64,000 nt of DNA from Candidatus Microgenomatus sp. (GCA_020724805.1 DYGI01000002.1:23582-87581); one strand, 5' to 3'. Positions 3,573-26,337 are shown, counted from the stretch's first letter. The notes: generated by a model not told the origin, from the letters alone. Program-made: numbers and translations.

Positions 3573-6500
3573 ATGAAACGCTTTGCATTGCTGGTCGGGA
3601 TAATCGCCCTCTTCGGGGCGATGGTGATTGCGAGTCCGCTTGATATGGAAGAAGTAAGAGCTGCGGTGTGGGACTGGGTCCCCGGTTCGGAGAGCGGCAT
3701 CTCCGCGACTCCCACTTCGCAGTCCGCCATCAGCGTGAGTTGGGGCGAGGACTATTATTCGACCGGTCCCGAAGACCTCTACCGTTGTTCGGGGAGCGGC
3801 AGTTGTACGCCGACTTATTTTGCGAACGTTTTCCAGAGTTCGAGCTATAACAACACCGGTCTCTCGTGTGGCACTACCTATCGCTACCGTGTCTGCTCCG
3901 ACTACGGTTGTACGAGCATCGCCACCGCATCGACCGACGCTTGTACGCCTGCAACGCCGAGCACACCTTCGGCAAGTGGTACGGGCCAGACGACGATGTC
4001 GGTGACGTGGGGTGCAGTGAGTGGCGCTTCTGGCTACCACGTGTATCGAAACAGCGGCTATATCGGCGCGAGCGGAAGTGCGAGCTACAACGATTCTGGT
4101 TTGAGTTGCGGTACGCAATATGGTTACGGGATCGTGGCGTACGTAACGACGAACGGTCGCACGTATTACTCAGGTACTTCTGCGACAGGATATGGGTCGA
4201 CGAACGCGTGTCCGAGCGTGCCCACTCCGCCTTCCGGAGTCACCGCCACTCCAACCTCACAGACCACGCTCATAGTTGGATGGACCGACAACTCCGGGAA
4301 CGAAACCGGCTTTAAGGTATACAGTGGTGACGGAGTTACGCCGCGGAGCACTACTGGCGCGAATATCACTTCGGTTGAAGAAGGAGGGTTGAGTTGTGCG
4401 ACAAGCTACGACAAATGGGGGGTGAGAGCGTATAACGCGGTCGGGGACTCGAACATCGCATTCAATACCCCCCCGAGTACGCTCGATGCCTGTACGCCCT
4501 CCGCGCCTTCAGCGTTGAGTTGCAGCCCGGCCTCGCAGAGTCAGATCAACTGTTCGTGGACTGATAACTCGAACAATCCCACCACCAACTACGAAACTGG
4601 TTTCCAGGTCGAGCGATGTAGCGGATCGGGGTGTTCGGGCTACTCCCTGGTAGGTTCACCAGGTCAGAACGTCACATCCTTCTCGAGTACGGGACTTGCT
4701 TCAGGTACGCTCTATCGTCACCGTGTGCGGGCTTACGTGAGCACAAACGGGAGAACTTACTACTCTGGTTACACTGCTGTTTCAGACGCAACGACCGATG
4801 CTGCGACTCCCGGCGTTCCGACGAGCGTTTCACAGACTCCGACGGGGCAGGCGACTGTTCAAATAAGTTGGGCGGGCGGTTCGCCTTCGACCCAGACAGG
4901 GTTCCGTGTTACGGATGCGCAAGGCGTGCAGGACTATAATTCTTCGACCTTTAATGCGACCGGACTTTGCAGCACTGCGGGTGCGGCACTCTCATGTGGT
5001 ACCTCGTGCACCGCAGTCAATGTAAGAGCATATGTCGATACGAATGGGCGGCGATACTATTCCAACACAGTTACGCCGACCGCGGTTACGCTGGATGCCT
5101 GTACGCCCGCGACCCCGACCGGAGTGAGTGCAAGCGCAGTAGCCGCAAACCAAGTGAACGTGTCGTGGGGCAATGTGGCGGGAGAAACGGGATATAAAAT
5201 CAGTCGATGTACGGGGAGTAGCTGTTCACCTGCGTCGTACACAACAAAAGCAGTTGATGTAACATCGCACCCTGACGGCAGTCTCTTAGAGAACACAATC
5301 CACCGGTATGCCGTGAGTTCGTATGTATCAACGAACGGGAGGGAATATGAATCAGATCTTTCTACGGTTGCGCAGGCAACCACGCAAGATCTCGCGGTTG
5401 CCATCACTACATACTCCAGCTATGTGAACGCGGCGAACCAGGCGGCGATAGCGGTTTCCGGCACCTGCAGCGGCGGGAGCGGTACGGTGAGTATTTCGAT
5501 AACATCGACCGGTGGCGGAGGACCGGTAACCGCCTCGCCTACTTGTTCCTCCGGTACCTGGTCGGCGGGTTCTCTGAACCTTACGCCGCTTGGCCAAGGA
5601 AATCTGACCTATGCTGCAACACTTACAGTGTCACCGAACACCGCGAACGCGAGTCAGCCGGGCGTGAAAGATGTTACCGCGCCCAGTGTAACTGCGCCGA
5701 CCGACGGAGGCACCTGGACTAATAACACCTCTCTCACTTTCAGCTCAACGCCGAGCGACACGGGCGGCTCTGGTCTCTCCGATTGCACCGGTCAGATAGA
5801 CGTCAACAACACCGACGGCGCCGGCCTCGTGTTCAACGGCTCGGTGGGCACCGATGGTGACCATACGTTTGTGGGAACCTCCGGTAACACTTATTACTAT
5901 CGGGTATCTTGTACTGATAATGCGGGCAACTCGAGCGGATATACCGCGTGGACTAACGGAATCGGTCTCGACACAGGAAACCCCTCGATCACTGGCCCAA
6001 CAGACACTGGCACCTGGACTAATAACACCTCTCTCACTTTCAGCTCGACGCCGAGCGACACGGGCGGCTCTGGTCTCTCCGATTGCACCGGTCAGATAGA
6101 CGTCAACAACACCGACGGCGCCGGCCTCGTGTTCAACGGCTCGGTGGGCACCGATGGTGACCATACTTTCATCGGGACTGAGGGGAATACCTACTATTAT
6201 CGGGTATCTTGTACTGATAATGCGAGCAACTCGAGCGGATATACCGCGTGGACTAATGGGATTGGCATTGATCTTACTGCGCCCGCGTTCAGCTCGAAGA
6301 CCGCCGCATGCGGTAGCTGGCAAAACACGAACTGGGTCTCGACCTTCACCTACACCGATTCGTTCTCGGGCATCGCGTCCGGGAACAACCCCACCTGCAC
6401 TATCTCGACCGATGGGGCGAGCCAGACCTGCAACGTTACTCCGAATGTCTGCGACAACGCGAGTAACTGCAACACGACGCTTATCACGAGTAACACCTGT

Positions 6501-7175
6501 AGCGTCGACAAGACGGCGCCGACCCCTAACCCCTCCACTGGCTCCGCAGCGAGTACCTGTGCGTATGACGCCGCGACTCGCTCTATCACGTGGACCATCA
6601 ATTCTTCCACGGATGTAACTTCCGGTCTGAATAGCTCGGGTTACTCCTTTACAAACGGTTCCACCTGGCAGGCCTCAAACCAGTTGGTGGAATCGGGAGT
6701 TACTACCGCAACAACCACTAAAACGGTAAGAGCACGCGACGTTGCGGACAACCAGACGACTGCGGGTACTATAACCGCCGGTCAAGTCGTATGCATACCG
6801 CCTCCCTCGAGTGCGCCCACATCGCCTTCCGGGTCACTCGACGGTGGGCAAGGGAGCGTGCTTCTGTCGTGGTCTGAAGTTCCAGATGTTTCAGGATATC
6901 TCATCGAGCAAAGCACGGATGGTGGATCGACATGGAATTACCTACCTGATGGTACGATTTCATTAGGGTCGGTTACCACCCATCCGGTTTCGAACTATGA
7001 AAACGAATGTCCTAAGGATTATCTCTATCGCGTGATTGCTTACACGACCGATGCGAGCTCTGATAATGATACGAACTGTCCTGTGGGGCAGCGTGATAAC
7101 CGGAAATGCTCTGCTCCTTCGGCCGCCATTACGGCACAAATTCGCTATTGCACCGGGTTCTTCTTGGGAGAGTAA
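3573..7175 (+). CDS. Giant secreted surface protein with multiple fibronectin-III-like repeats and Ser/Thr/Gly/Asn-rich, Cys-containing segments
   Basis: 1200 aa. Sec signal peptide MKRFALLVGIIALFGAMVIASP. At least 7 repeats of about 95 aa follow the pattern S.SW......GY.VYR....LsC.t.Y.YrV.AY. There are many NxS/T sequons. Two near-identical 100-aa internal repeats are present. No LPXTG, T9SS or TM anchor. Confidence 0.75.
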   Translation: MKRFALLVGIIALFGAMVIASPLDMEEVRAAVWDWVPGSESGISATPTSQSAISVSWGEDYYSTGPEDLYRCSGSGSCTPTYFANVFQSSSYNNTGLSCGTTYRYRVCSDYGCTSIATASTDACTPATPSTPSASGTGQTTMSVTWGAVSGASGYHVYRNSGYIGASGSASYNDSGLSCGTQYGYGIVAYVTTNGRTYYSGTSATGYGSTNACPSVPTPPSGVTATPTSQTTLIVGWTDNSGNETGFKVYSGDGVTPRSTTGANITSVEEGGLSCATSYDKWGVRAYNAVGDSNIAFNTPPSTLDACTPSAPSALSCSPASQSQINCSWTDNSNNPTTNYETGFQVERCSGSGCSGYSLVGSPGQNVTSFSSTGLASGTLYRHRVRAYVSTNGRTYYSGYTAVSDATTDAATPGVPTSVSQTPTGQATVQISWAGGSPSTQTGFRVTDAQGVQDYNSSTFNATGLCSTAGAALSCGTSCTAVNVRAYVDTNGRRYYSNTVTPTAVTLDACTPATPTGVSASAVAANQVNVSWGNVAGETGYKISRCTGSSCSPASYTTKAVDVTSHPDGSLLENTIHRYAVSSYVSTNGREYESDLSTVAQATTQDLAVAITTYSSYVNAANQAAIAVSGTCSGGSGTVSISITSTGGGGPVTASPTCSSGTWSAGSLNLTPLGQGNLTYAATLTVSPNTANASQPGVKDVTAPSVTAPTDGGTWTNNTSLTFSSTPSDTGGSGLSDCTGQIDVNNTDGAGLVFNGSVGTDGDHTFVGTSGNTYYYRVSCTDNAGNSSGYTAWTNGIGLDTGNPSITGPTDTGTWTNNTSLTFSSTPSDTGGSGLSDCTGQIDVNNTDGAGLVFNGSVGTDGDHTFIGTEGNTYYYRVSCTDNASNSSGYTAWTNGIGIDLTAPAFSSKTAACGSWQNTNWVSTFTYTDSFSGIASGNNPTCTISTDGASQTCNVTPNVCDNASNCNTTLITSNTCSVDKTAPTPNPSTGSAASTCAYDAATRSITWTINSSTDVTSGLNSSGYSFTNGSTWQASNQLVESGVTTATTTKTVRARDVADNQTTAGTITAGQVVCIPPPSSAPTSPSGSLDGGQGSVLLSWSEVPDVSGYLIEQSTDGGSTWNYLPDGTISLGSVTTHPVSNYENECPKDYLYRVIAYTTDASSDNDTNCPVGQRDNRKCSAPSAAITAQIRYCTGFFLGE
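5699..6298 (+). repeat. Two tandem 300-bp copies inside the giant ORF (period exactly 300 bp; about 160 bp identical bar 1 mismatch, remainder about 85%)
   Basis: cacctggactaataacacctctctcactttcagctc at 5711 recurs at 6011. The protein units are TWTNNTSLTFSSTPSDTGGSGLSDCTGQIDVNNTDGAGLVFNGSVGTDGDHTF, seen twice. Confidence 0.9.
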
Positions 7176-7773: not shown

Positions 7774-9450
7774 CTACCTAAGCAGGAGCATCTTCTTCGT
7801 CTGGACGAATCCATTCGCCTCCAGCCGATAGAAGTACACTCCGCTCGGCAATCCTGATGCGTCCCACGTGACGCGGTGGGTCCCCCTCTCGAAAACATCC
7901 TCGGCGAGTATCGATACTTCGATGCCAAGAATGCTTGTTACCGAAAGGCGGACACGTTCCCTCGTCGGTATGGCGAACTCGATCGTGGTCGCAGGGTTGA
8001 AGGGGTTCGGGTAGTTCTGTGAAAGCGCGAACGTTTTCGGAACTTCCGTCTCCTCGACCTTTACTACACGATCAACGCGATATTCAGGCGAATCTACGCT
8101 GTCTGTCGCGCCGTGGATATCGGTGGCGACAAGGCGGAACTGGAAGGTATGGTCGTGCAGGGCGTACGGTATCGTTCCCCACACCTCGCTCTTTGTGGAG
8201 TCTACCGAAAGCCACGAGGGACTCTTGGCGGAATCGAGCCTTACCGTGACTGGGTCGCCATCAGTATCAAAGGCGAAGTATGTTCTTTTGAAGAACGTCC
8301 CTCCGTACGTCACGGTGTCGCCAGGAGAATAAAGGAGAATCGGGCTGTGGTTTGCCGGTTTGGAAGAAAGAATGCCTCTATATATTCCCTTCCATGTTCC
8401 GACGTATACCGCCGAGTCCTTCATTACGACCGACTGGACGCTTTCTCCTGGGAGACCTAAGAGCTCCCACGTCGAACCATCATCGGTTGACCGATAGAGA
8501 CCTCCATTGCCCATTTCTTGGCACGAGAAGACACTATTGTCGGCACCGAGAACCAGGCTCCAAACCTTCACGTTCGATTTCACCACGTGCCACGTTGCGC
8601 CGTAGTCAGTCGAGCGGTAGATGTTATTGGTCTTACTAAACGGTGGCTCGCCTGGCGGAGCATTGTACAAGAGTCCGCTAGCAAGAAGGTAGTTGTTTGG
8701 GAGTTTAACAAGTGTGGTAATTGATGCTCCCAGAGTGATTCCACTCGAGGATCGTGTCCAACTATCCCCATTGTCCGTGGAACGGTACACCCCGTTCGGT
8801 AGGAATTCGATTCCTCCTGGTCCTACTGTGATGTATGATGTGTCACCGATGAATGTTAGGGATCTGAACTCTTGCCGGTCGGGACCGTGACCACTATCTC
8901 CTGCGTGGGGATTGTCAGGGATTCCGTTTGTGAGCGTGTCCCACTTTACGCCCCGGTCAGTGGAGCGGAAGAGTCCTCGCTCTGTCGCGAAGAAGAAACC
9001 GCCAGTGCTCGGATTGACGCCAAGCTCAAAGCCCCATCTTGTAGCAGGTAACCCTACGCGAGCGCCACTCATTTTTTCCCACGTGTCGCCATCGTCAGTT
9101 GACCGATGAAGTCCGTAGGGAAAACCCGCTACATAAATGTATCCGGAGTCGTCCACCGCGAAGTTCCACCCCTCGCTGTCATAAAATCCACGACTCGGCC
9201 CCACTTCTACCCATGTTTTACCGTTGTCGCGCGATTCCCAAAGCCCTGATGTGTTGGTGAATGGAATTATGCCTGCAAGGATATGTCCTCGCTTGTTTAC
9301 CATAAGCGCTCTCACATTTATGTCCCAGTTGTTCAGTACCTGCTCGAACGCGATGGTGTCAGTACTCTTTGATAAGCTCTGTCCCTCCGCCACGAAGTGG
9401 GGGACGGACGCGGCGATCAGAATCGCCAAATATTTCGTCATGCGTTTCAT
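7774..9450 (-). CDS. BNR/Asp-box repeat beta-propeller protein (sialidase/Ycf48-like) with a T9SS (Por) C-terminal sorting domain
   Basis: Six SxDxGxTW Asp-boxes (SRDNGKTW, STDDGDTW, STDRGVKW, STDNGDSW, STDYGATW, STDDGSTW). Sec signal peptide. The C-terminus ...ALSQNYPNPFNPATTIEF...GVYFYRLEANGFVQTKKMLLLR matches the T9SS type-A CTD. The ATG at 9450 is preceded by AAAGGAG 8 nt upstream. GC is visibly lower than in neighbouring genes. Confidence 0.8.
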   Translation of the reverse strand: MKRMTKYLAILIAASVPHFVAEGQSLSKSTDTIAFEQVLNNWDINVRALMVNKRGHILAGIIPFTNTSGLWESRDNGKTWVEVGPSRGFYDSEGWNFAVDDSGYIYVAGFPYGLHRSTDDGDTWEKMSGARVGLPATRWGFELGVNPSTGGFFFATERGLFRSTDRGVKWDTLTNGIPDNPHAGDSGHGPDRQEFRSLTFIGDTSYITVGPGGIEFLPNGVYRSTDNGDSWTRSSSGITLGASITTLVKLPNNYLLASGLLYNAPPGEPPFSKTNNIYRSTDYGATWHVVKSNVKVWSLVLGADNSVFSCQEMGNGGLYRSTDDGSTWELLGLPGESVQSVVMKDSAVYVGTWKGIYRGILSSKPANHSPILLYSPGDTVTYGGTFFKRTYFAFDTDGDPVTVRLDSAKSPSWLSVDSTKSEVWGTIPYALHDHTFQFRLVATDIHGATDSVDSPEYRVDRVVKVEETEVPKTFALSQNYPNPFNPATTIEFAIPTRERVRLSVTSILGIEVSILAEDVFERGTHRVTWDASGLPSGVYFYRLEANGFVQTKKMLLLR

Positions 9451-9603
9451 CCCGCACACTCCTTTCCTTCCGTTCAGTTCAGTGATTTGTGATTGTTAAT
9501 ATTGCCCCTGTATTATACCAAATTATACAAAAAAGTCAAATTTTATGCGGGTTTTGGAGGAAATAATGTTTGTGGATAAGTTTTCATGAGAAGATACCAG
9601 AAT

Positions 9604-19704: not shown

Positions 19705-20724
19705 ATGAAATCGATAGACCGACTTTTGGAAGATTGTTTCGCGATGCTTTCCCCCAAGCAGCGCCGTGTTGTGGTTGGGCGGTTTGGCTTGAAAGGAGGC
19801 GCGAAATCAACCCTCCAGGAGATCGGTGATGAGCTTGGGGTGACCCGTGAAAGGGTGCGCCAGATCGAAGCGCAGACGATGAAAAAGCTCTCGCCGATGA
19901 TCCGCGCCGAGGCGGAGTCGCTTATAACGGTGGCGACGCGTCATTTGGGGAGCGTGGGAGGAGTGCGCCGTGACGACAATTTCATGGATGATCTTCGCGA
20001 AACGGTTCTTAAGTCGGACCGGGACGTGAAAAATTTCGCCGAGAAAGTACGCTTTGTGCTTCTCGCGGCGGGAGAGCCGCGCTATGCGCCTGCCACCGAC
20101 GAAATGCATGCCTATTGGGCAACGAACGCGGCGGCGGAAAAAAAGTTCGCGGATTTTGTGAAAAAGGTAACCGATTTCTTCAAGAAAGCGGGCACCAAAA
20201 AGATCGTTGACGAAAAAGCCCACCTCGCGCTCTGCAAAGACATGGTGACGTGCCACTGGCTTTCAATCCCGAAACACATCGGCACGAACGTGTTCGGCGA
20301 CGTGGGGCTCCGCGAATGGGCGGAGATCGAACCGAAAACGGTGCGTGACAAAGCGTACCTCGTGCTCAAAAAGCACGAGAAGCCACTTCACTTTGAGGAC
20401 ATTGCGAAGCACATCGCGAAATACAAGCTTGCCGCGAAGCCCGCGCACGTGCAGACGGTGCACAACGAGCTCATCAAAGACGAACGATTCGTACTCGTGG
20501 GCCGCGGCATCTATGCCTTGGAGGAACATGGATACGAGCGGGGGACGGTGCGCGAGGTCATCGCGAAACTTTTGAAGCGGAACGGACCGATGGACGCAAA
20601 AAGGGTGCTTGCACTCGTGAACGAGCAGCGTTTTCTGAAGCAGAACACGGTGCTTCTTGCGCTCCAAAACCGCAAGTATTTCAACCGCTTGGACGATGGG
20701 CGGTACCGCGTAAAAGAAGCGTAA
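19705..20724 (+). CDS. Sigma-70 region-4 HTH protein with a C-terminal HARE-HTH-like (RNAP delta N-terminal-like) winged helix
   Basis: 339 aa. The N-terminus ...KSTLQEIGDELGVTRERVRQIEAQTMKKL matches sigma-70 region 4. The C-terminus has a ...FVLVGRGIYALEE... motif typical of HARE-HTH. There are no sigma regions 2 or 3. Confidence 0.55.
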   Translation: MKSIDRLLEDCFAMLSPKQRRVVVGRFGLKGGAKSTLQEIGDELGVTRERVRQIEAQTMKKLSPMIRAEAESLITVATRHLGSVGGVRRDDNFMDDLRETVLKSDRDVKNFAEKVRFVLLAAGEPRYAPATDEMHAYWATNAAAEKKFADFVKKVTDFFKKAGTKKIVDEKAHLALCKDMVTCHWLSIPKHIGTNVFGDVGLREWAEIEPKTVRDKAYLVLKKHEKPLHFEDIAKHIAKYKLAAKPAHVQTVHNELIKDERFVLVGRGIYALEEHGYERGTVREVIAKLLKRNGPMDAKRVLALVNEQRFLKQNTVLLALQNRKYFNRLDDGRYRVKEA

Positions 20725-20800
20725 GGAAAAGCTCCGACCGCATCGGGGCTTTTTTGTTGGGCGCGGCGGTCCGATTGGGGTACAATAGAGGTACTTTACG

Positions 20801-22192
20801 ATGTTGAAGGAGGTGTTGAACCACATCACGGAATTTTTCTCCGAATTCTTCAAAAAAGAAGAGGTGTGGATGCTGCTTCTCTTTGTGGGGCTCGGAGTAT
20901 GGGTTATCTATGCGTTTTTCGAGACGATATGGGAGATACTCAGGAATTTCTTCCTCTACGCCTGGCCCCTTCTCCTCTTCTTCGTGTTGCTCGGAATATT
21001 CGAGTCGCTGTGGCTTTTTGTGCGCCAGGAGCGCTTCAAGGAGAAGGATGAATTCGTGCTCCTTGAGCTCAAAATCCCGCGTGAGGTGAAAAAAAGCCCG
21101 CAAGGTATGGAAGAAGTGCTCGCCGCGATGCATTCACTTCGGAATTCTCCCGGAACGTTCAAGGAAAAATATATTGATGGCGAGGTGCCGCGGTGGTTTT
21201 CGCTGGAGCTTGTGAGCATTGGAGGCGTGGTGCGGTTTTTTGTGCGCGTGAATACAAAACAGCGCCGCGTGGTGGAAGCGGCGTTCTATTCCTATTACCC
21301 GGACATTGTGGTCGAGGAGGTGGAGGACTACATCGGCATGTTTCCCAAAAGCGGCGACGAGATGAAGGAGCGGCGGATGAAAATGTGGGGGACCGAACTC
21401 GTGCTCGCGAAGGATGCGGCATACCCGATAAAAACGTACGACAAGTTCGAGAACATCGCGGAGGAAAAGCAATTCGACCCCATTTCCACGTTTCTTGAGA
21501 TTTTAGGAAGAGTACCGAGCGGCGAAGTGGTAGGAATCCAAATACTCATCGCGCCGGCGCCGGGAGATTGGCAAGAGGAGTTCGAAGAACTTTTGAACGA
21601 GCTCAAAACGCCAAAAACCATTTCCGTGGAAGAGGACGAAGGAAGCAAGGAGCTTACGGTGGCGCGCTCTCCTGGACACACCGACGTGTTGAAAGCGGTG
21701 GAAGAAAATTTCTCAAAACCCGCGTTCCAAACGCTCATACGGCTCATGTATATCGCGCCCGAAGATTCGTTTGCGAAAGGGCCTCCGGCACATGGCGCGC
21801 TCGGCGCATTCAGCCAATTCACCGCGCTCGACCTGAACAGTTTTAGGCCCAACAAACTTATGACGACGAAGGCCGACGTATGGTCGAAGCCGTATGTGGC
21901 GCCGAAGGTCCGCCTTTCATATCGGGAACAACGCCTTCTTTGGAATTACCGCAGGCGTGAAGTGCCCCCCGAAACATGGATGGGGAAGTTTATGACGTCA
22001 TTTCTCTATCACTGGAATTTCGGTTCGACGCGATTTCTTATGACCACCAAAGGGATTGCGACTCTGTTCCACCCGCCGACCGCGGTGGTTTTGACAGTCC
22101 CACACGTGAAGCGCACCGAGAGCCGCCGCGCCAGCCCTCCCGCAGGTCTCGCCATTTTCGGCGAGGAGGAGGAACTAGGACGTTTCAACTAG
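20801..22192 (+). CDS. Hypothetical membrane protein (2 N-terminal TM helices plus an about 390-aa soluble domain)
   Basis: 463 aa. An upstream GGGGTACAATAGAG -10-like box at 20779-20792 matches the motif before 43738. First gene of a 3-gene module. Confidence 0.6.
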   Translation: MLKEVLNHITEFFSEFFKKEEVWMLLLFVGLGVWVIYAFFETIWEILRNFFLYAWPLLLFFVLLGIFESLWLFVRQERFKEKDEFVLLELKIPREVKKSPQGMEEVLAAMHSLRNSPGTFKEKYIDGEVPRWFSLELVSIGGVVRFFVRVNTKQRRVVEAAFYSYYPDIVVEEVEDYIGMFPKSGDEMKERRMKMWGTELVLAKDAAYPIKTYDKFENIAEEKQFDPISTFLEILGRVPSGEVVGIQILIAPAPGDWQEEFEELLNELKTPKTISVEEDEGSKELTVARSPGHTDVLKAVEENFSKPAFQTLIRLMYIAPEDSFAKGPPAHGALGAFSQFTALDLNSFRPNKLMTTKADVWSKPYVAPKVRLSYREQRLLWNYRRREVPPETWMGKFMTSFLYHWNFGSTRFLMTTKGIATLFHPPTAVVLTVPHVKRTESRRASPPAGLAIFGEEEELGRFN

Positions 22193-22199
22193 CATTTTC

Positions 22200-22736
22200 A
22201 TGCCAAACATTCTCGCGCCGATCGAAAATCTGGTAACTTCCGTCATTGAATTCCCTTGGATGGACATGCTCATTGCGGTTCGGATATTCTTCATATTCTT
22301 CGATGTGGTGCTACTCCTCGTGCTTTTTTGGCTGTTCACGGAGGCGTATGAGCTGCGTCCCCATTTTTTACGACGTGCTTCCGAAGCGGCGCGCGTGCCC
22401 GTGCTCGACCAAGAAAAGTTTTCCGCGCGATGGGCGCGGATTGTGGAAAAAGCATTCCAATCGCCGCCTCAATCGCTGGTGCTTGGCGTCATCGAAGCCG
22501 ATAAATGCGTGGATGACGCGCTCAAAGGGTTGGGACTGGAAGGAGAGCATATGGCGGATCGACTCGAGCAGATTCGTGCGGAAGATTATCCTTCTCTCGA
22601 TCGACTTTGGCGCGCGCATCGGGTGCGGAACGAATTGGTGCATACCCCCGATTTCGGCATCGACGCCGAGGACGCCAAAGATATCCTTGCCATCTACGAA
22701 AAGTTTCTCAAGGAGCTCGGCGCCCTTCCTTCATAG
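22200..22736 (+). CDS. Small single-TM protein with a C-terminal helical domain carrying a HEPN-like Rx4H motif
   Basis: 178 aa. TM at about residues 22-45. Reads ...LWRAHRVRNELVHTPDFG... Confidence 0.5.
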   Translation: MPNILAPIENLVTSVIEFPWMDMLIAVRIFFIFFDVVLLLVLFWLFTEAYELRPHFLRRASEAARVPVLDQEKFSARWARIVEKAFQSPPQSLVLGVIEADKCVDDALKGLGLEGEHMADRLEQIRAEDYPSLDRLWRAHRVRNELVHTPDFGIDAEDAKDILAIYEKFLKELGALPS

Positions 22737-22742
22737 CCGATT

Positions 22743-24074
22743 ATGATACGCGCGGGGAGGATACAAATCATAAAATATGCCCCGCCGCCACCTGAGCTCC
22801 CCATGCTCGGGAAGGCGCGGCCCGAGGATTGTTCATTTATCGGCCGCACCAACTATGTTACGGGTATCGAGGAAAAGAAGTTCGTGTTCGGATTGAAGCG
22901 CCACGACCGGCGCCACCACGTGTATCTCATAGGGAAAAGCGGCATTGGGAAGACAAAAATGCTCGAGCTTCTCGTGCGACAGGATATTGCACACGGGTAT
23001 GGGGTAGCGGTGGTGGACGCCCAGGGCGATCTTGTGGATTCACTCATCGATTTTATCCCCGAAGAAAGGGTTGCGGACGTATGCGTGTTCGACCCGTCCG
23101 ATACCGAGCACCCGCTCGCGTGGAATCCACTCTCGGGAGTTCCGGCGGAGTTCAAGCATTCACTCACCCAGAGTTTTATTGAGGTGATGGAAAAGGAATT
23201 CGGCACCCACTGGAATCCTCGCATCGAGCACCTCTTTCGTTTTGTGTGCCTCGCGCTTCTCGACTATCCTCACGCCACCATGCGCGGGATGATATTGCTT
23301 CTCACTGATGCCGCATATCGCGAAGAAGTGAAGAAGCATGTCAAAGACGATATCGTGCGGAAATTCTTTACCAACGAATTCGAGGGATGGGTGCGGCAAT
23401 ACGAGAGCGATGCCATCGTTCCTTTAGTGAACAAACTGGCGCAATTCGTGCTCCACCCGCTCCTTCGGACCGTGTTCGAGCGCGAGGAGCATAAAGTGGA
23501 TGTGGGCGCGATAATGGAACGCGGGGGCATTTTTCTCGCCAATCTTGCGCGGGGGAAGCTGGGAGACCAGAACGCGAATTTTCTCGGCGCGCTTCTTATC
23601 GCGAAAATGAAGCAGGCAGGTATGGCGCGCGCAAACCTTTCCGAATCGGCGAAAAAAGATTTCTATCTCTACCTCGATGAATTCCACGGGTGTGCGACCG
23701 AGACTTTTGAAAACCTCCTTTCCGAGGCGCGCAAGTTCGGGATGTGTCTTACGCTTTGCCACCAGTATTTGGAGCAGCTCGCCCCTCGACTGCAGGCCGC
23801 CATTCTCGGCAATGTGGGGACCATCATTGTATTTCGGGCGAGTGGAGAAGATGCGGCACGCCTTGAGGTGGAAATGAACCCCGTGTTCAAAGCGAAAGAT
23901 ATGATAAATCTCGGCACGCAGGAGTTTTACATCAAAATGACGATCGACGGAGAAACCAATGACCCGTTTTCCGCGGAAACGCTCAAGGTGCTTCCCTCAC
24001 CGCGGGGTTCGTTTCGTTCCCACGTAATCGCGGCGTCGCGCGCTCGATACGCCGCTAAGGTTTCGTCGTCCTAA
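22743..24074 (+). CDS. P-loop ATPase of the TraD/TraG/VirD4-HerA/FtsK (AAA-like, DUF87-type) clade; coupling-protein-like, without TM segments
   Basis: 443 aa. Walker A is HVYLIGKSGIGKTKM. ...VVDAQGDL...FDPSDTEHPLAWNPL is a TrwB/VirD4-like nucleotide-binding stretch. Walker B is YLYLDEFHG, followed by ARKFGMCLTLCHQYLEQL. Confidence 0.6.
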   Translation: MIRAGRIQIIKYAPPPPELPMLGKARPEDCSFIGRTNYVTGIEEKKFVFGLKRHDRRHHVYLIGKSGIGKTKMLELLVRQDIAHGYGVAVVDAQGDLVDSLIDFIPEERVADVCVFDPSDTEHPLAWNPLSGVPAEFKHSLTQSFIEVMEKEFGTHWNPRIEHLFRFVCLALLDYPHATMRGMILLLTDAAYREEVKKHVKDDIVRKFFTNEFEGWVRQYESDAIVPLVNKLAQFVLHPLLRTVFEREEHKVDVGAIMERGGIFLANLARGKLGDQNANFLGALLIAKMKQAGMARANLSESAKKDFYLYLDEFHGCATETFENLLSEARKFGMCLTLCHQYLEQLAPRLQAAILGNVGTIIVFRASGEDAARLEVEMNPVFKAKDMINLGTQEFYIKMTIDGETNDPFSAETLKVLPSPRGSFRSHVIAASRARYAAKVSSS

Positions 24075-24092: not shown

Positions 24093-25553
24093 ATGACAGA
24101 GTCGAAGAACAGAAAAAGAATCTCCGATATCGTACCCCGTCGAAAGACCGCCGGTCGTCCGGAGATGAGGGATCGCAAGGAAGAAGTGGTAACCACGTCG
24201 AAGCCTACGAAACGTGTGGCGAAAAAAACGCCGCCACCCCCAAAAGCAGAGCCCGTGAAGGCTATAGAAAAGGCGGAAGAACCGGATTTTTTTTCGGTCA
24301 CGGTGAGCGAAACCCGCATTGATGCGGGCGCCCCCCCTATTTTTACAGGAGCTTCGGAAGAAAGTGCTGCTTATTATGAAGAGGAGGCACCCAAGGTGGT
24401 GCGCCATCGGAAGTTTCGCCGGATGCCCCGCGTGGCCCTCGTGATTCTTGCGGTGCTTGTGGCGGGGGGCGTAGGAGCATGGTTCCTGCTTCCCAAAGCG
24501 GTGGTGGCGCTCACGATGAAAAAATATCCGACGGAGTTTTCGAAGACCATCGTGGTCGCCGCAGACCGCACTTCAATTAATGTACCCGGCGCACTCGTAA
24601 TTCCCGGTGAGGCTCTGGAAGCGCGTGCAAACCTCACGCTCCCATTCACCGCGGAAGCAACCGAGACGGTTTCCGCGAAAGCCACGGGAATTCTTACGGT
24701 GTACAACTCGTATAGCTCGGCGCCACAAGCGCTTGTGCGGAATACCCGTTTTGAATCTCCCGACAAAAAAATATTCCGATTGGAGAGACAGGTGACCGTG
24801 CCCGGCGCAAAAGTGGAGGGAGGCAAGGTGACGCCATCGTCCATCGAAGTGACGGTAGTGGCGGAAGAAGCGGGAGAATCTTACAATCTTCCCCCGTCAT
24901 CGGGATGGCGTATTCCCGGATTCGCCGGAGGTCCGCGGTATGAAGGATTTTATGCGGAAGCGAAGCAGGGGATGAAGGGAGGATTCACCGGAGAACGCGC
25001 CAAACCTTCTGTGGCCGAACTCGCCAATGCGCGGGCAGAACTTATCGATGCGCTCACCGACGCCCTGGAAAGCCAGTTTCTCATCATTCTTTCTGATAGA
25101 TTCACCGCACTCCCGGGAAGCAGACGCATTACACTTGTGGCAGAAAAAGTGGAAGCGGACGCTGAAAACACCCACACTTTTCATCTGTTCGGTGAAGCGG
25201 TGATGAAACAGATAGTATTTGAAGAACCGACGCTCAAAGACGCACTCATCAACGAAGCGAGCCGCGCACTTCCAAAAGAGCTTGCGGCGAAGGAATTTTC
25301 CTACGCCCTCGGCACTTCCACAGTGGATTTCGCGAAAAATACGCTTACAATCCCCGCGCAAGGGAAAGGAGTGTTCACTGAACCTTTTGATGTGGATGCA
25401 TTCCGCGCGGCAATGGCGGGGAAGGAAGAAGCCGAACTCAAAGCGGCGGTGTTCGCCATTCCCGGCGTGGAAGTCGCGACCGTGTCGCTCTCGCCGTTCT
25501 TCGTGCGCTCGGTACCAGAAAATATAGAAAAGATAGAAGTGACGGTGGAATAG
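24093..25553 (+). CDS. Hypothetical bitopic membrane protein (basic Lys/Pro-rich N-terminal tail, one TM, about 350-aa extracytoplasmic domain)
   Basis: 486 aa. The TM is RVALVILAVLVAGGVGAWFLL. Leaderless: TATAAT at 24080-24085, then the ATG at 24093. Confidence 0.5.
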   Translation: MTESKNRKRISDIVPRRKTAGRPEMRDRKEEVVTTSKPTKRVAKKTPPPPKAEPVKAIEKAEEPDFFSVTVSETRIDAGAPPIFTGASEESAAYYEEEAPKVVRHRKFRRMPRVALVILAVLVAGGVGAWFLLPKAVVALTMKKYPTEFSKTIVVAADRTSINVPGALVIPGEALEARANLTLPFTAEATETVSAKATGILTVYNSYSSAPQALVRNTRFESPDKKIFRLERQVTVPGAKVEGGKVTPSSIEVTVVAEEAGESYNLPPSSGWRIPGFAGGPRYEGFYAEAKQGMKGGFTGERAKPSVAELANARAELIDALTDALESQFLIILSDRFTALPGSRRITLVAEKVEADAENTHTFHLFGEAVMKQIVFEEPTLKDALINEASRALPKELAAKEFSYALGTSTVDFAKNTLTIPAQGKGVFTEPFDVDAFRAAMAGKEEAELKAAVFAIPGVEVATVSLSPFFVRSVPENIEKIEVTVE

Positions 25554-25737: not shown

Positions 25738-25777
25738 TAAAAAAAATTGGCCAGACACCCGAAATGGATGCCTGGCC
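25738..25777 (-). terminator. Intrinsic terminator for the minus-strand gene 25815-26192
   Basis: On the minus strand the GGCCAG...CTGGCC hairpin is followed by AATTTTTTTTAT. Confidence 0.4.
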
Positions 25778-25814
25778 GTGTACCGATGAATCTTTCTCTC
25801 AGCGGTCCTGGAGG

Positions 25815-26192
25815 CTAGCAGCGACGTGATATGAGCTGCGTACTGCCCCTGGACCGGACGCCCGTGATCTCGATGGCCGAATTCGCGTTGACCGTGGTAA
25901 TAGCGGCATTGTCGATGAGAGCCAAGTGCTCGTTCCGAACGAGGAGCGATGCGCTCACGATGGTCGCGGCAATCGGACCGGCACGTGCCACGGGTTGTCC
26001 GATGGCGGTCTCTTTCGTCAGGTCGACGGTCGCTTGATCCGAGTATTCCATAGGGGAGGCGCGATCCATCGCGGGCATGTTCTTGCCGACGACGAGGGCC
26101 GAGGCTTCGACGGGGACCATGGCGAGCAAACCGGTCATGAGCACGATGGCCATGATCGGAGCGCGGATGAGCCGGGCGAGAAAGGTCTTCAT
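25815..26192 (-). CDS. Small secreted or exported hypothetical protein
   Basis: 125 aa from the ATG at 26192, which has AAGGAGG 4 nt upstream. Signal peptide is MKTFLARLIRAPIMAIVLMTGLLAMVPVEASA. The ORF-track start at 26315 is an upstream in-frame extension. Confidence 0.55.
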   Translation of the reverse strand: MKTFLARLIRAPIMAIVLMTGLLAMVPVEASALVVGKNMPAMDRASPMEYSDQATVDLTKETAIGQPVARAGPIAATIVSASLLVRNEHLALIDNAAITTVNANSAIEITGVRSRGSTQLISRRC

Positions 26193-26308
26193 ACGACCTC
26201 CTTTTGAAAAGAGATGAGAGAAAGGGTGAAAGAACATTGTCCCACACACCGGAACAATAGAAGGAGCGTACCACACCTTTTTCTGAAGGGCAAATAGGAG
26301 TCCGGTTG

Positions 26309-26337
26309 TTGACACTCTCTGCCATTTTCCTTATATT
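26309..26337 (+). promoter_or_regulatory. Sigma-70 promoter of the infA-rpmJ-rpsM... operon
   Basis: TTGACA, 17 nt, TATATT. Confidence 0.55.

What the first reader, a model, noticed from the sequence alone, without database searches (positions are those of the whole stretch)
20801..24074. Three-gene membrane module ending in a TraD/VirD4/HerA-like ATPase, with no other conjugation genes; candidate translocation or defence system
Three co-oriented genes, possibly four, lie between secDF with the sigma-r4 gene and the infA ribosomal operon. Their start and stop codons are 8 and 7 nt apart. Gene 1 (20801-22192) is a 463-aa protein with 2 N-terminal TM helices and a large soluble domain with no motif I recognise. 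Gene 2 (22200-22736) is a 178-aa single-TM protein whose C-terminal helical domain carries an Rx4H-type HEPN-like motif (HRVRNELVH). Gene 3 (22743-24074) is a 443-aa soluble P-loop ATPase with Walker A GKSGIGKT, a TrwB/VirD4-like FDPSDTEHPLAWNPL segment and Walker B YLYLDEFHG followed by ARKFG...QYLEQL. These are the hallmarks of type IV coupling proteins and HerA/FtsK-clade translocases. A possible gene 4 (24093-25553) is a bitopic protein with a Lys/Pro-rich cytoplasmic tail and a 350-aa external domain. No relaxase, VirB4 or VirB6 is present. An ATPase that is a T4CP paralog paired with a TM plus HEPN-like protein is not a configuration I recognise from described conjugation, competence or defence systems. 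It could be a minimal DNA or protein translocator used in an episymbiotic lifestyle, or a HEPN-based abortive-infection module energised by a HerA/FtsK-type motor.
Basis: partly seen in the sequence, partly recalled or inferred. Interest (0 to 1): 0.72.

Follow-up and report, generated by a model that had tools for sequence, protein, structure and literature searches.

The report
Split VirB4-like membrane ATPase with HEPN
Three tightly packed genes in this tiny-genome (Parcubacteria-type) bacterium encode a membrane-anchored ATP-driven motor, built in two pieces from type IV secretion parts, plus a membrane-tethered putative RNA-cutting protein; the set is a conserved core chromosomal trait of this bacterial group and its job is still unknown.

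Summary
Genes 1-3 (20801-24074) are real and sit 6-7 nt apart. In 51 related species-level genomes with enough upstream sequence, gene 1 precedes gene 3 in 42 and gene 2 precedes it in 33.

- **Gene 3:** a soluble coupling-protein-type (TrwB/VirD4/TraD) ATPase. Its catalytic motifs are invariant.
- **Gene 2:** a single-pass membrane protein. Its cytoplasmic domain folds like HEPN, and the RNxxxH motif is invariant in 40 orthologs.

Genes 1 and 3 therefore form a two-piece VirB3/VirB4-like architecture carrying a coupling-protein-type motor. Single-chain fusions of both halves exist (PHROG 5156 / phage SPO1 gp27.4, and loci L020 and L078).

Gene 4 is not part of the module; it travels with infA. 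The flanks are housekeeping genes, and gene 3 is usually at least as conserved as SecD. This argues against a defence island or a mobile element.

Orphan coupling-protein homologs in Patescibacteria were noted in 2025, but I found no description of their partners or this architecture. The function is not established. I favour an exapted, membrane-docked nucleic-acid translocase. I rate it a new variant of a known kind.

The parts
20801..22192 (+). Gene 1: DUF8128 (PF26449) protein. It has an N-terminal helix, a two-helix TM hairpin (about residues 20-38 and 46-64, N-in/C-in by the positive-inside rule) and a cytoplasmic alpha/beta domain of about 380 aa with a VirB4 N-terminal-domain fold. The C-terminal motif GPPAGLAIFG plus acidic tail is conserved.
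22200..22736 (+). Gene 2: single-pass membrane protein with a cytoplasmic HEPN-like four-helix domain (about residues 71-173). W137, H140, R143, N144, L146, V147 and H148 (RNxLVH = Rx4H), plus D101 and the GEHMADRL block, are invariant.
   Evidence: Alignment A1 of 40 orthologs. AF2 pLDDT 92. Foldseek PDB top hits are HEPN proteins (2hsb, 5yep, 1ylm, 1wol, 7ae6, Csm6, AbiV) at E 0.05-2. No Pfam, NCBIfam or PADLOC family hit. Found upstream of g3 in 33 of 51 loci.
22743..24074 (+). Gene 3: soluble (TMD-less) T4CP-class P-loop ATPase. Walker A is G64-K65-S66-G67-x-G69-K70, Walker B is D312-E313; Q341 and R365 are invariant. The N-terminal motif APPPPELPxxG is invariant.
   Evidence: Pfam TrwB_AAD_bind 7e-15, T4SS-DNA_transf and TraG-D_C above cutoff. 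NCBIfam TraD/VirD4 families 1e-10 to 7e-13 versus VirB4 families about 0.01. Profile versus PDB: TrwB is best, E 0.007, collinear over Walker A and B; no VirB4. Mean column identity 78% over 35 orthologs. phrog_5156 1.3e-47.
20730..20800 (+). Inter-operon region. A terminator-like hairpin with a T-run (about 20730-20755) follows the sigma-r4/HARE gene. A TACAAT box at 20781-20786 lies just upstream of the g1 ATG. This is the probable start of the g1-g2-g3(-g4) transcription unit.
   Evidence: Read directly from the sequence. This is an inference; the consensus scan did not list the + strand hairpin.
19705..20724 (+). Conserved upstream neighbour, possibly an associated DNA-binding factor. It combines sigma-70 region 4, an RNAP-delta-like HARE-HTH and a conserved C-terminal block. 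It has no nuclease motif.
   Evidence: Pfam Sigma70_r4 1e-15 and HARE-HTH 9e-8. NCBIfam RNAP_delt_lowGC 2.8e-7. Directly upstream of g1 in 34 of 39 loci, including lineages where secDF is not adjacent. Conservation map and negative hhalign against the SPO1 relaxase.

Best explanation
Genes 1-3 form one translationally coupled operon. It encodes a membrane-docked ATPase machine derived from type IV secretion ATPases, fixed as a vertically inherited core chromosomal trait of Paceibacteria/Parcubacteria.

**Shown**
- g3 is a TMD-less motor of the coupling-protein (TrwB/VirD4/TraD) class with intact, invariant catalytic motifs.
- g1 supplies what g3 lacks: a VirB3-like two-helix membrane hairpin fused to a cytoplasmic domain with the VirB4 N-terminal-domain fold.
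- The two are halves of one architecture. Single polypeptides containing both halves in the same order occur elsewhere.
- g2 is a single-pass membrane protein whose cytoplasmic domain has a HEPN-like fold and an invariant RNxxxH motif.

**Inferred**
- The g1 scaffold organises a g3 hexamer on the inner face of the membrane, as the VirB4 NTD and VirB3 do in the R388 inner-membrane complex.
- ATP hydrolysis threads a polymer through the ring. I think nucleic acid is the most likely substrate, because the closest families move DNA and the fused phage relatives sit beside a relaxase.
- The tethered HEPN dimer cleaves RNA at the same membrane site in the lineages that keep g2.
- The machine has been exapted from conjugation or secretion for a housekeeping or lifestyle role. 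It is neither a conjugation system nor a defence island.
- Whether it works alone or docks onto the separately encoded Patescibacterial T4SS is open.
For: **Gene 3 identity**
- Family assignment to T4CPs from Pfam, NCBIfam and PDB profile searches.
- Invariant Walker A/B, Q341 and R365, with 78% mean column identity.

**Gene 1 fold**
- The Foldseek top 13 hits are all TrwK/VirB4.
- The TrwK NTD spans residues 15-400, and VirB3 is a two-TM hairpin wrapped around it (PMC9259494).

**Fusions of g1 and g3**
- phrog_5156 is hit by g1 at positions 77-205 and by g3 at positions 388-774.
- SPO1 gp27.4 is 906 aa; its C-terminal half carries the g3-like region (tblastn), and only a weak collinear hhalign match (E 0.047) links its N-terminal region to g1. 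PHROG membership of gp27.4 itself was not tested.
- The L020 fusion and L078 show the same junction.
- The invariant motif PPxxLxx[FY]G occurs at the g1 C-terminus and the g3 N-terminus, and once at the fusion junction.

**Linkage**
- Spacers are 6-7 nt.
- Of 51 loci, g1 precedes g3 in 42, g2 in 33, and both in 30.

**Core, not mobile**
- The flanks are secDF and the infA ribosomal operon.
- GC content is flat across the region.
- g3 identity is 50-66% across the Patescibacteria loci, against 47-88% for SecD, and in most loci that carry both genes g3 is as conserved as SecD or more.

**HEPN**
-.

**DNA-related context of relatives**
- The SPO1 and 0305phi8-36 'DNA translocation operon' contains a Replic_Relax/MobC-type relaxase (PMC3357382).

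**Literature**
- 5,713 T4CP homologs were found in 2,918 Patescibacteria genomes, only 148 of them near virB4. The authors say exaptation 'cannot be ruled out' (PMC12102498).
Against: - No experiment or complex prediction shows that g1, g2 and g3 bind each other. The multimer prediction could not be run.
- The g1-VirB4 link is structural only. Identity is 9%, and profile comparisons with pGO1 TrsD and TrsE, and a profile search of PDB sequences (which include TrwK), found nothing. It also rests on a predicted model.
- HEPN E-values are weak (0.05-2), and no HEPN sequence family is hit.
- HEPN implies RNA while T4CPs imply DNA or protein, so the substrate is unresolved.
- g2 is absent in about a third of lineages. 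In 6 of 51 loci neither g1 nor g2 is adjacent to g3.
- The complex contributes only three TM helices per protomer set and no VirB6-like channel protein, so autonomous transport across the membrane is doubtful.
- According to PMC12102498, the T4CP homolog of Saccharibacterium S. epibionticum was not essential for epibiotic growth. Whether that homolog belongs to this module was not checked.
Confidence: 0.6

Rival explanations
1. g3 is the genuine coupling protein of the Patescibacterial (monoderm, MPF-FATA-like) T4SS and is simply encoded far from virB4. g1 is its membrane receptor or adaptor, in the way TraI serves the TMD-less TraJ of pIP501. Substrates would be proteins, possibly the Cys-rich c2 proteins arrayed next to g3 in other genomes, delivered through the T4SS to host cells.
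For: - T4CPs are often encoded away from the mating-pair-formation genes, and a T4SS is widespread in Patescibacteria (PMC12102498).
- TMD-less T4CPs with a separate membrane partner are a recognised class (PMC7431656).
- The VirB4-NTD-like fold of g1 is the kind of domain that contacts VirB3 and VirB8 in a T4SS.
- Tandem, diversified c2 genes abut g3 in 40 of 59 loci, and their zinc-finger type is fused to the g3 paralog.
Against: - No T4SS gene lies in the 64-kb window or within +/-8 kb in about 60 related loci.
- Only 148 of 5,713 Patescibacterial T4CP homologs lie near virB4. The S. epibionticum homolog was dispensable while T4SS genes were essential.
- c2 is absent from this window.
- A HEPN partner has no known role in type IV secretion.
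Confidence: 0.22
2. This is a HEPN-based abortive-infection or toxin module whose RNase is regulated or energised by the ATPase, as in PrrC/RloC-type ATPase-HEPN anticodon nucleases or HerA-partnered defence systems.
For: - The Rx4H motif is invariant.
- g3 hits PADLOC mad8 at 1.6e-10 and hits HerA models weakly.
- g1 gives faint Abi_2/AbiD hits at E 0.04 and 0.009.
- That ATPase+HEPN pairings are common in conflict systems is from my own knowledge.
Against: - The operon is in fixed housekeeping synteny (secDF - sigma-r4/HARE - g1-g2-g3) across many families of a class.
- g3 is 50-66% identical across these Patescibacteria lineages and in most of them as conserved as SecD or more. Defence systems are patchy and sit in variable islands.
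- There is no complete PADLOC system, no other MADS genes, and g2 has no PADLOC hit.
- GC content is flat, and the large ORFs scanned on either side are housekeeping genes with no integrase or transposase among them.
- g2 is the least conserved member and is dispensable in many lineages.
Confidence: 0.06
3. This is an FtsK-like chromosome-segregation or division translocase split into parts: a membrane anchor (g1), a motor (g3) and a DNA-recognition winged helix (the upstream sigma-r4/HARE-HTH protein).
For: - g3 matches both coupling-protein and HerA (DUF87) models. That T4CPs, VirB4, FtsK and HerA form one superfamily is from my own knowledge.
- The upstream DNA-binding protein is co-conserved with g1 in 34 of 39 loci.
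- Division genes recur nearby in some lineages: an FtsW/RodA-like protein (c16, judged from its sequence) upstream in the Giovannonibacteria-type loci, and an FtsZ-like protein (judged from its sequence) next to the paralogous pair in L056.
Against: - g3 scores as a T4CP. FtsK_SpoIIIE is not among its own Pfam hits.
- Most neighbours are unrelated housekeeping genes such as DnaJ, CutA and PaaX-like.
- A terminator-like hairpin separates the HTH gene from g1.
- Whether these genomes lack a canonical FtsK could not be tested.
- A HEPN domain has no role in such a model.
Confidence: 0.07

Closest known systems
VirB3-VirB4 inner-membrane ATPase of type IV secretion systems (TrwM/TrwK of R388; natural VirB3-VirB4 fusions)
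   Same: Both have a two-helix membrane hairpin, an N-terminal alpha/beta domain of about 380 aa and a RecA-like hexameric motor. The g1 fold matches the TrwK NTD by two methods. Single-chain versions of g1+g3 exist.
   Different: The architecture is split into two genes. The motor scores as T4CP, not VirB4. There is no detectable sequence similarity to VirB4, TrsD or Pfam CagE_TrbE_VirB. No VirB6, VirB8 or pilin genes are nearby. The setting is the chromosomal core, not a plasmid or ICE.
Type IV coupling proteins without a transmembrane domain that pair with a separate membrane protein (TraJ/TraI of pIP501; class iii of Llosa and Alkorta, as cited in PMC7431656)
   Same: Both have a soluble TrwB/VirD4-class NBD encoded next to a small membrane partner. 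The Pfam TrwB_AAD_bind, T4SS-DNA_transf and TraG-D_C domains are present.
   Different: There is no relaxase, oriT or mating-pair-formation genes. The partner carries a VirB4-NTD-like domain. A HEPN protein is added. The unit is vertically inherited and class-wide.
Phage 'DNA translocation operon' coupling ATPase (0305phi8-36 orf201, SPO1 gp27.4; PHROG 5156)
   Same: PHROG 5156 is homologous to both g1 (N-terminal part) and g3 (C-terminal part), at E 4.5e-8 and 1.3e-47. SPO1 gp27.4, a tblastn relative of g3, has the same order of halves. The 2012 paper interprets it as a T4CP-like translocase lacking a TMD (PMC3357382).
   Different: The phage protein is one chain of about 900 aa with no TM helix. 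It sits beside a Replic_Relax/MobC relaxase and a ParM-like protein. It is dispensable in the laboratory. Its N-terminal domain had not been identified.
Orphan T4CP homologs of Patescibacteria (Quinonero-Coronel et al. 2025, PMC12102498)
   Same: This is almost certainly the same protein population: about two T4CP homologs per genome, rarely near virB4. That fits g3 plus the larger zinc-finger paralog.
   Different: That study did not describe the neighbouring DUF8128 and HEPN genes, the split VirB4-like architecture or the conserved synteny.
HEPN-domain RNases (MNT-HEPN toxins such as SO_3166, AF_0298, Csm6, AbiV)
   Same: The predicted helical bundle fold and an R-N-x3-H motif on a core helix, invariant in orthologs.
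   Different: g2 is membrane-anchored by an N-terminal TM helix. There is no MNT antitoxin, no hit to any HEPN sequence family, and the gene is embedded in an ATPase operon.

Membership tests
Type IV coupling protein (VirD4/TrwB/TraD) | Nucleotide-binding domain of the T4CP clade with Walker A and B | tested here: met
   Pfam TrwB_AAD_bind scores 55.2 bits (cutoff 20.5); T4SS-DNA_transf 27.1 (20.1); TraG-D_C 23.5 (22). TrwB is the best PDB sequence match. Walker A and B are invariant.
Type IV coupling protein (VirD4/TrwB/TraD) | N-terminal transmembrane domain in the same polypeptide | tested here: not met
   g3 has no hydrophobic segment. A TM hairpin is supplied by the adjacent g1. TMD-less T4CPs are a recognised minority class (PMC7431656).
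Type IV coupling protein (VirD4/TrwB/TraD) | Genetic linkage to a relaxase and/or mating-pair-formation genes; role in substrate recruitment | tested here: not met
   There is no relaxase, VirB4 or VirB6 in the window or among the recurrent neighbours in about 60 loci. The functional role cannot be tested here.
Type IV coupling protein (VirD4/TrwB/TraD) | All-alpha domain inserted in the NBD | not tested
VirB4 (with VirB3) | VirB4-specific N-terminal domain fold preceded by or bound to a two-TM VirB3 hairpin | tested here: met
VirB4 (with VirB3) | Sequence membership (Pfam CagE_TrbE_VirB for the NTD, VirB4-type CTD; NCBIfam VirB4_CagE) | tested here: not met
   g1 has no Pfam hit. g3 scores about 0.01 against VirB4 families but 1e-10 to 1e-13 against TraD/VirD4 families. 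hhalign against pGO1 TrsD and TrsE is negative.
VirB4 (with VirB3) | NTD and motor in one polypeptide, encoded with VirB6/VirB8 | tested here: not met
   They are split into g1 and g3 here. Fused relatives exist elsewhere. There are no VirB6/VirB8 neighbours.
HEPN domain | Helical bundle fold | tested here: met
   AF2 pLDDT is 92. Most of the top Foldseek hits are HEPN proteins, at probability 0.99-1.0 for the top two and target TM-score 0.55-0.61. E-values are only 0.05-2.
HEPN domain | Conserved Rx4-6H motif | tested here: met
   R143-N144-x-L146-V147-H148 is invariant in 40 orthologs at 36-60% identity.
HEPN domain | Metal-independent endoribonuclease activity | not testable with these tools
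   This needs biochemistry.
Anti-phage defence system (PADLOC catalogue; MADS) | A complete set of system genes, a patchy distribution and a location in a variable island | tested here: not met
   There is only one partial hit (mad8, for g3) and nothing for g2. The operon lies in conserved core synteny across a class.
DUF8128 (PF26449) | Sequence match to the Pfam family | tested here: met
   The precomputed PF26449 hit is recorded for g1 itself and for nearly all of its listed homologs. The model is absent from the local Pfam copy, so it was not re-scored.

The most novel reading that the evidence does not exclude
The g1-g2-g3 complex is an autonomous, minimal nucleic-acid translocation and processing machine of ultra-small episymbiotic bacteria. 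It would be a VirB4-scaffolded, T4CP-powered ring at the membrane that imports or exports DNA or RNA, with a tethered HEPN RNase, for example for nucleotide scavenging or exchange with the host. It would also represent a previously unrecognised lineage bridging VirB4 and coupling proteins, which would inform how the two T4SS ATPases diverged.
Probability: 0.15. Interest if true: 0.85.

Novelty: new variant of a known kind. Interest (0 to 1): 0.62.

Why it matters
Parcubacteria/Paceibacteria have genomes of about 0.5-1 Mb. A gene set kept in fixed synteny across the class, with a motor usually at least as conserved as SecD, is therefore likely to matter for their biology.

A 2025 survey found thousands of orphan coupling-protein homologs in Patescibacteria and could not explain them. 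This analysis gives them partners:
- a DUF8128 protein, now assigned a VirB4 N-terminal-domain fold and a membrane anchor;
- a membrane-tethered HEPN protein.

It also links them to a fused family in large Bacillus phages.

This makes concrete experiments possible: a complex structure, localisation, substrate identification and RNase assays. It assigns a structural role to a Pfam DUF with about 2,600 sequence clusters. It also bears on how VirB4 and T4CP motors evolved and were exapted.

Tried and rejected
1. **Upstream protein as a relaxase analogue: rejected.** I asked whether the sigma-r4/HARE-HTH protein is a MobC/Replic_Relax-type relaxase or PD-(D/E)XK nickase analogue. Only the HTH blocks are conserved, the middle region is unconserved, there is no nuclease motif, and hhalign against SPO1 gp27.3 is negative. 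NCBIfam shows sigma region 4 plus RNAP-delta-like domains.
2. **Sequence-level link of g1 to VirB4, TrsD or TrsE: none.** hhalign and a PDB profile search found nothing, so the link is structural only.
3. **g4 as a fourth component: rejected.** In other genomes g4 sits next to infA and is separated from g3 by 1-4 kb of other genes.
4. **Small recurrent neighbours c7, c9, c16, c17 and c29: ordinary housekeeping genes.** They are CutA, a cytidylyltransferase, FtsW/RodA-like (from its sequence), PaaX/Cas2-like and DnaJ. c8 has no Pfam hit.
5. **Viral-contig scan with the g3 alignment:** no confirmed relatives.
6. **R388 (BR000038) and pGO1 (FM207042) accessions:** not held in the collections. pGO1 was reached as NC_012547.
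7. **Literature search for PF26449/DUF8128:** nothing found. The search for FtsK in CPR bacteria was uninformative.
8. **PDB sequence searches:** g3 as a single sequence and the g2 profile gave nothing significant.
9. **Verrucomicrobiota relatives of g3 (37-40% identity):** they lack g1 and g2, and in the one locus examined (L062) the gene sits next to a CHC2 zinc-finger gene. This is a different context and says nothing about function here.

Full report
**1. Observation**

- g1: 20801-22192, 463 aa
- g2: 22200-22736, 178 aa
- g3: 22743-24074, 443 aa
- g4: 24093-25553, 486 aa

Public gene calls on the source contig, a 570,864-bp metagenomic contig, give identical genes. The spacers are 7, 6 and 18 nt. 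All quoted motifs are present.

A hydropathy scan finds two N-terminal hydrophobic segments in g1, one long stretch in g2, none in g3, and one at 110-128 in g4. By the positive-inside rule, the large domains of g1 and g2 both face the cytoplasm, where g3 resides. This topology is my inference from the sequence.

GC content is flat across the region. The flanks are housekeeping genes. Upstream lie a P-type ATPase, secD, secF and a sigma-r4/HARE-HTH gene. Downstream lie infA, rpsM, rpsK, rpsD, rpoA and rplQ. All other large ORFs in the window are housekeeping or surface proteins, with no VirB4, VirB6 or relaxase.

**2. Gene 3**

- g3 passes the Pfam gathering thresholds for TrwB_AAD_bind (E 7e-15), T4SS-DNA_transf and TraG-D_C.
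- NCBIfam TraD/VirD4 models score 1e-10 to 7e-13. VirB4 models score about 0.01.
- A profile of 35 orthologs finds TrwB as the best solved relative, collinear over Walker A and Walker B. VirB4 does not appear at E <= 1.
- Against pGO1 proteins, g3 aligns with the T4CP TrsK across the motor region (E 8e-4), but with the VirB4 TrsE only at Walker A.
- Orthologs show 78% mean column identity, with invariant Walker A, Walker B (D312, E313), Q341 and R365.

g3 is therefore an active, strongly constrained, TMD-less motor of the coupling-protein class.

**3. Gene 2**

In 40 orthologs at 36-60% identity, W137, H140, R143, N144, L146, V147 and H148 are invariant. So are D101 and the GEHMADRL block. The AF2 model is confident (pLDDT 92). 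It has an N-terminal helix, a TM helix, a flexible linker and a helical bundle.

Most of the top Foldseek hits against the PDB are HEPN proteins: AF_0298, SO_3166, YutE, ST0689, the AMPylated HEPN toxin, Csm6 and AbiV. Probabilities are high for the top two, but E-values are weak. No HEPN sequence family is matched.

I accept a HEPN-like fold with a conserved catalytic-type motif. RNase activity is inferred only.

**4. Gene 1 (the main new result)**

Homologs carry PF26449, which the gene table names DUF8128. My local Pfam copy lacks this model. The AF2 model (pLDDT 82, pTM 0.76) shows an N-terminal helix, a long TM hairpin and a repeated alpha/beta domain.

- No P-loop ATPase appears in the list, so the match must be to the VirB4-specific N-terminal domain.
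- Foldseek agrees independently. All 13 hits with E <= 1e-3 are TrwK/VirB4 chains. There is no TrwB, FtsK, HerA or CTD-only VirB4.

Mace et al. 2022 define the TrwK NTD as residues 15-400. They show VirB3 as a helix plus two TM helices wrapped around it (PMC9259494). This is the same layout and size as g1.

Sequence profiles cannot bridge g1 to TrsD, TrsE or anything in the PDB.

**5. g1 and g3 are two halves of one architecture**

- PHROG 5156 has an 824-position profile of unknown function. g1 hits positions 77-205 (E 4.5e-8) and g3 hits positions 388-774 (E 1.3e-47).
- SPO1 gp27.4, a tblastn relative of g3, is 906 aa with no TM helix. The g3-like part is its C-terminal half. A weak hhalign alignment of its N-terminal region to g1 (E 0.047) is collinear with the PHROG match. 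I did not score gp27.4 itself against the PHROG library.
- In a Parcubacteria genome, L020 12938-14719 fuses a g1-like domain directly to a g3-like ATPase. L078, from a non-Patescibacteria contig, shows the same junction.
- The g1 C-terminus (GPPAGLAIFG) and the g3 N-terminus (APPPPELPxxG) share the motif PPxxLxx[FY]G, which is invariant in both. The motif occurs once at the fusion junction. I read this as the retained junction or docking element.

**6. Conservation and context**

A scan of species-representative genomes returned 80 loci. About 60 are Patescibacteria: Brenner-, Jorgensen-, Giovannoni-, Sung-, Wolfe-, Lipton- and Nealsonbacteria, and Paceibacterota.

Of 51 loci with at least 2.3 kb upstream of g3:
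- g1 precedes g3 in 42
- g2 precedes g3 in 33
- both precede g3 in 30
- neither precedes g3 in 6

The sigma-r4/HARE gene precedes g1 in 34 of 39 loci, including lineages where secDF is not adjacent. g3 identity across these Patescibacteria loci is 50-66%, against 47-88% for SecD, and in most loci that carry both genes g3 is as conserved as SecD or more. The g1 family has 2,648 clusters at 50% identity with E <= 1e-3.

g4 is found in only 11 loci. In those it lies next to infA, 1-4 kb from g3. It abuts g3 here only because the intervening genes are missing.

In this window a terminator-like hairpin (about 20730-20755) and a TACAAT box separate the sigma-r4/HARE gene from g1. So g1-g3, perhaps with g4, looks like its own transcription unit.

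**7. Wider module in other genomes**

Two further families recur in other genomes, and neither is present in this window:
- **c2.** An uncharacterised, Cys-rich protein of about 580 aa with CxxC-x17-CxxC zinc fingers at both ends. It lies against g3 in 40 of 59 loci, in tandem arrays of up to five copies, and sometimes between g1 or g2 and g3.
- **A larger g3 paralog.** It carries the same zinc finger at its C-terminus and often follows a few kb downstream.

**8. What is known**

- Quinonero-Coronel et al. 2025 (PMC12102498) found 5,713 T4CP homologs in 2,918 Patescibacteria genomes. Only 148 were near virB4. They noted that the S. epibionticum homolog is non-essential and that exaptation cannot be ruled out. 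They did not describe the neighbours.
- TMD-less T4CPs that use a separate membrane protein are a recognised class (PMC7431656).
- Pathria et al. 2012 (PMC3357382) described the fused phage relative as the coupling ATPase of a phage 'DNA translocation operon', next to a MobC/Replic_Relax relaxase. I confirmed the relaxase domain. The operon was non-essential in the laboratory, and its N-terminal domain was left unidentified.
- I found no paper mentioning DUF8128.

**9. Mechanism**

*Shown:* the family identities, folds, motifs, linkage and fusions described above.

*Inferred:*
- The g1 scaffold docks and organises a g3 hexamer under the membrane, as in the VirB3/VirB4 assembly.
- ATP hydrolysis translocates a polymer. 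Nucleic acid is the most likely substrate, given the T4CP family and the relaxase context of the fused relatives.
- The HEPN protein adds RNA cleavage at the same site in the lineages that retain it.

Core synteny and vertical inheritance argue for an exapted housekeeping or lifestyle role.

*Open questions:*
- The substrate. HEPN points to RNA, while T4CPs point to DNA or protein.
- Whether the machine acts alone or docks on the separately encoded T4SS.
- Whether it crosses the membrane at all. It has only three TM helices per protomer set and no VirB6-like channel protein.

**10. Rivals**

- **Remote T4CP of the Patescibacterial T4SS (0.22).** Plausible, and not excluded.
- **HEPN abortive-infection or defence module (0.06).** Contradicted by the distribution and conservation, and by the lack of any complete PADLOC system.
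- **FtsK-like segregation motor (0.07).** Supported only by scattered division-gene neighbours.
- **Upstream protein as a relaxase analogue.** Tested and rejected.

**11. Verdict**

The T4CP-like ATPase, the HEPN-like partner and the conserved unit hold. The defence reading and g4 as a member do not.
- New here are the assignment of DUF8128 as a membrane-anchored VirB4-NTD-like scaffold, and the recognition of g1+g3 as a split VirB4-type architecture with a coupling-protein-type motor, fixed in the core genome of Paceibacteria.
- I rate it a new variant of a known kind, with interest 0.62.

Noticed in passing
L008 9900-16982; L001 11692-16933; L013 9466-12983; L032 6181-7965 and 9474-11222 (not in the window): An uncharacterised Cys-rich protein family of about 580 aa (c2). 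It has CxxC-x17-CxxC (zf_Tbcl_2) zinc fingers at both ends, no TM helix, and no PDB or NCBIfam match. It lies against the g3 gene in 40 of 59 Patescibacteria loci, in tandem arrays of up to five diverged copies, and sometimes sits between g1 or g2 and g3. It could be a partner or a substrate of the ATPase.
   Followed up: partly
e.g. L032 13368-15437, L013 13418-16015, L018 9974-11749 (not in the window): A second, larger T4CP-like paralog of g3 (550-860 aa). It carries a C-terminal CxxC-x17-CxxC domain (TIGR04272, E 1e-12) and lies a few kb downstream of g3 in about 25 loci. Together with g3 this probably explains the roughly two T4CP homologs per Patescibacteria genome reported in PMC12102498.
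   Followed up: partly
L086 4747-7467 (Bacillus phage SPO1 gp27.4) and neighbours: Large Bacillus phages (SPO1, CP-51, JL, SP8 and others) encode a protein of about 900 aa whose C-terminal half is g3-like and whose N-terminal region aligns weakly and collinearly with g1, as in PHROG 5156. It sits next to a Replic_Relax relaxase (gp27.3) and a ParM-like partition protein (gp27.9). Its previously unexplained N-terminal domain would be the DUF8128/VirB4-NTD-like domain.
   Followed up: partly
window 22120-22192 (g1 C-terminus) and 22779-22811 (g3 N-terminus): The same short motif, PPxxLxx[FY]G, is invariant at the C-terminus of g1 (GPPAGLAIFG, followed by an acidic tail predicted to be disordered) and at the N-terminus of g3 (APPPPELPxxG). 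It occurs once at the junction of the L020 g1::g3 fusion.
   Followed up: partly
window 19705-20724: A 339-aa chimera of sigma-70 region 4, an RNAP-delta-like HARE-HTH and a conserved C-terminal block. It lies directly upstream of g1 in 34 of 39 loci. It has no nuclease motif and its role is unknown: possibly a regulator, a DNA adaptor or an RNAP-associated factor.
   Followed up: partly
window 24093-25553: g4 is a bitopic protein with a Lys/Pro-rich cytoplasmic tail. It scores just below threshold against the GlxA beta-barrel domain and weakly against a phage baseplate-wedge PHROG. In other genomes it is linked to infA, usually preceded by an uncharacterised gene of about 385 aa (c8) that this window lacks.
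   Followed up: partly
window 7777-9459 (- strand): A 561-aa protein with BNR/Sortilin repeats, a He_PIG Ig-like domain and a Por_Secre_tail (type IX secretion C-terminal sorting) domain. This is unexpected in a presumed monoderm CPR genome.
   Followed up: no
window 25749-26315 (- strand): A small hypothetical gene on the opposite strand (a 125-aa product in the public call, 25815-26192). A strong terminator hairpin follows it at 25777-25749 (12-bp stem, T8), convergent with g4. A near-consensus promoter for infA lies at 26309-26337.
   Followed up: no
L060-L077 (Verrucomicrobiota and other non-Patescibacteria contigs): Relatives of g3 at 37-40% identity that start at about residue 48 of g3, so they lack the Pro-rich N-terminus. 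They have no g1 or g2 neighbour. In the one locus examined (L062) the gene is next to a CHC2 (DnaG-type) zinc-finger gene, which suggests a mobile-element context.
   Followed up: partly
window 1271-3061 and 3573-7175: Two large proteins of unknown function: one of 596 aa with no Pfam hit, and one of 1,200 aa with a single fn3 domain. They are probably surface proteins.
   Followed up: no
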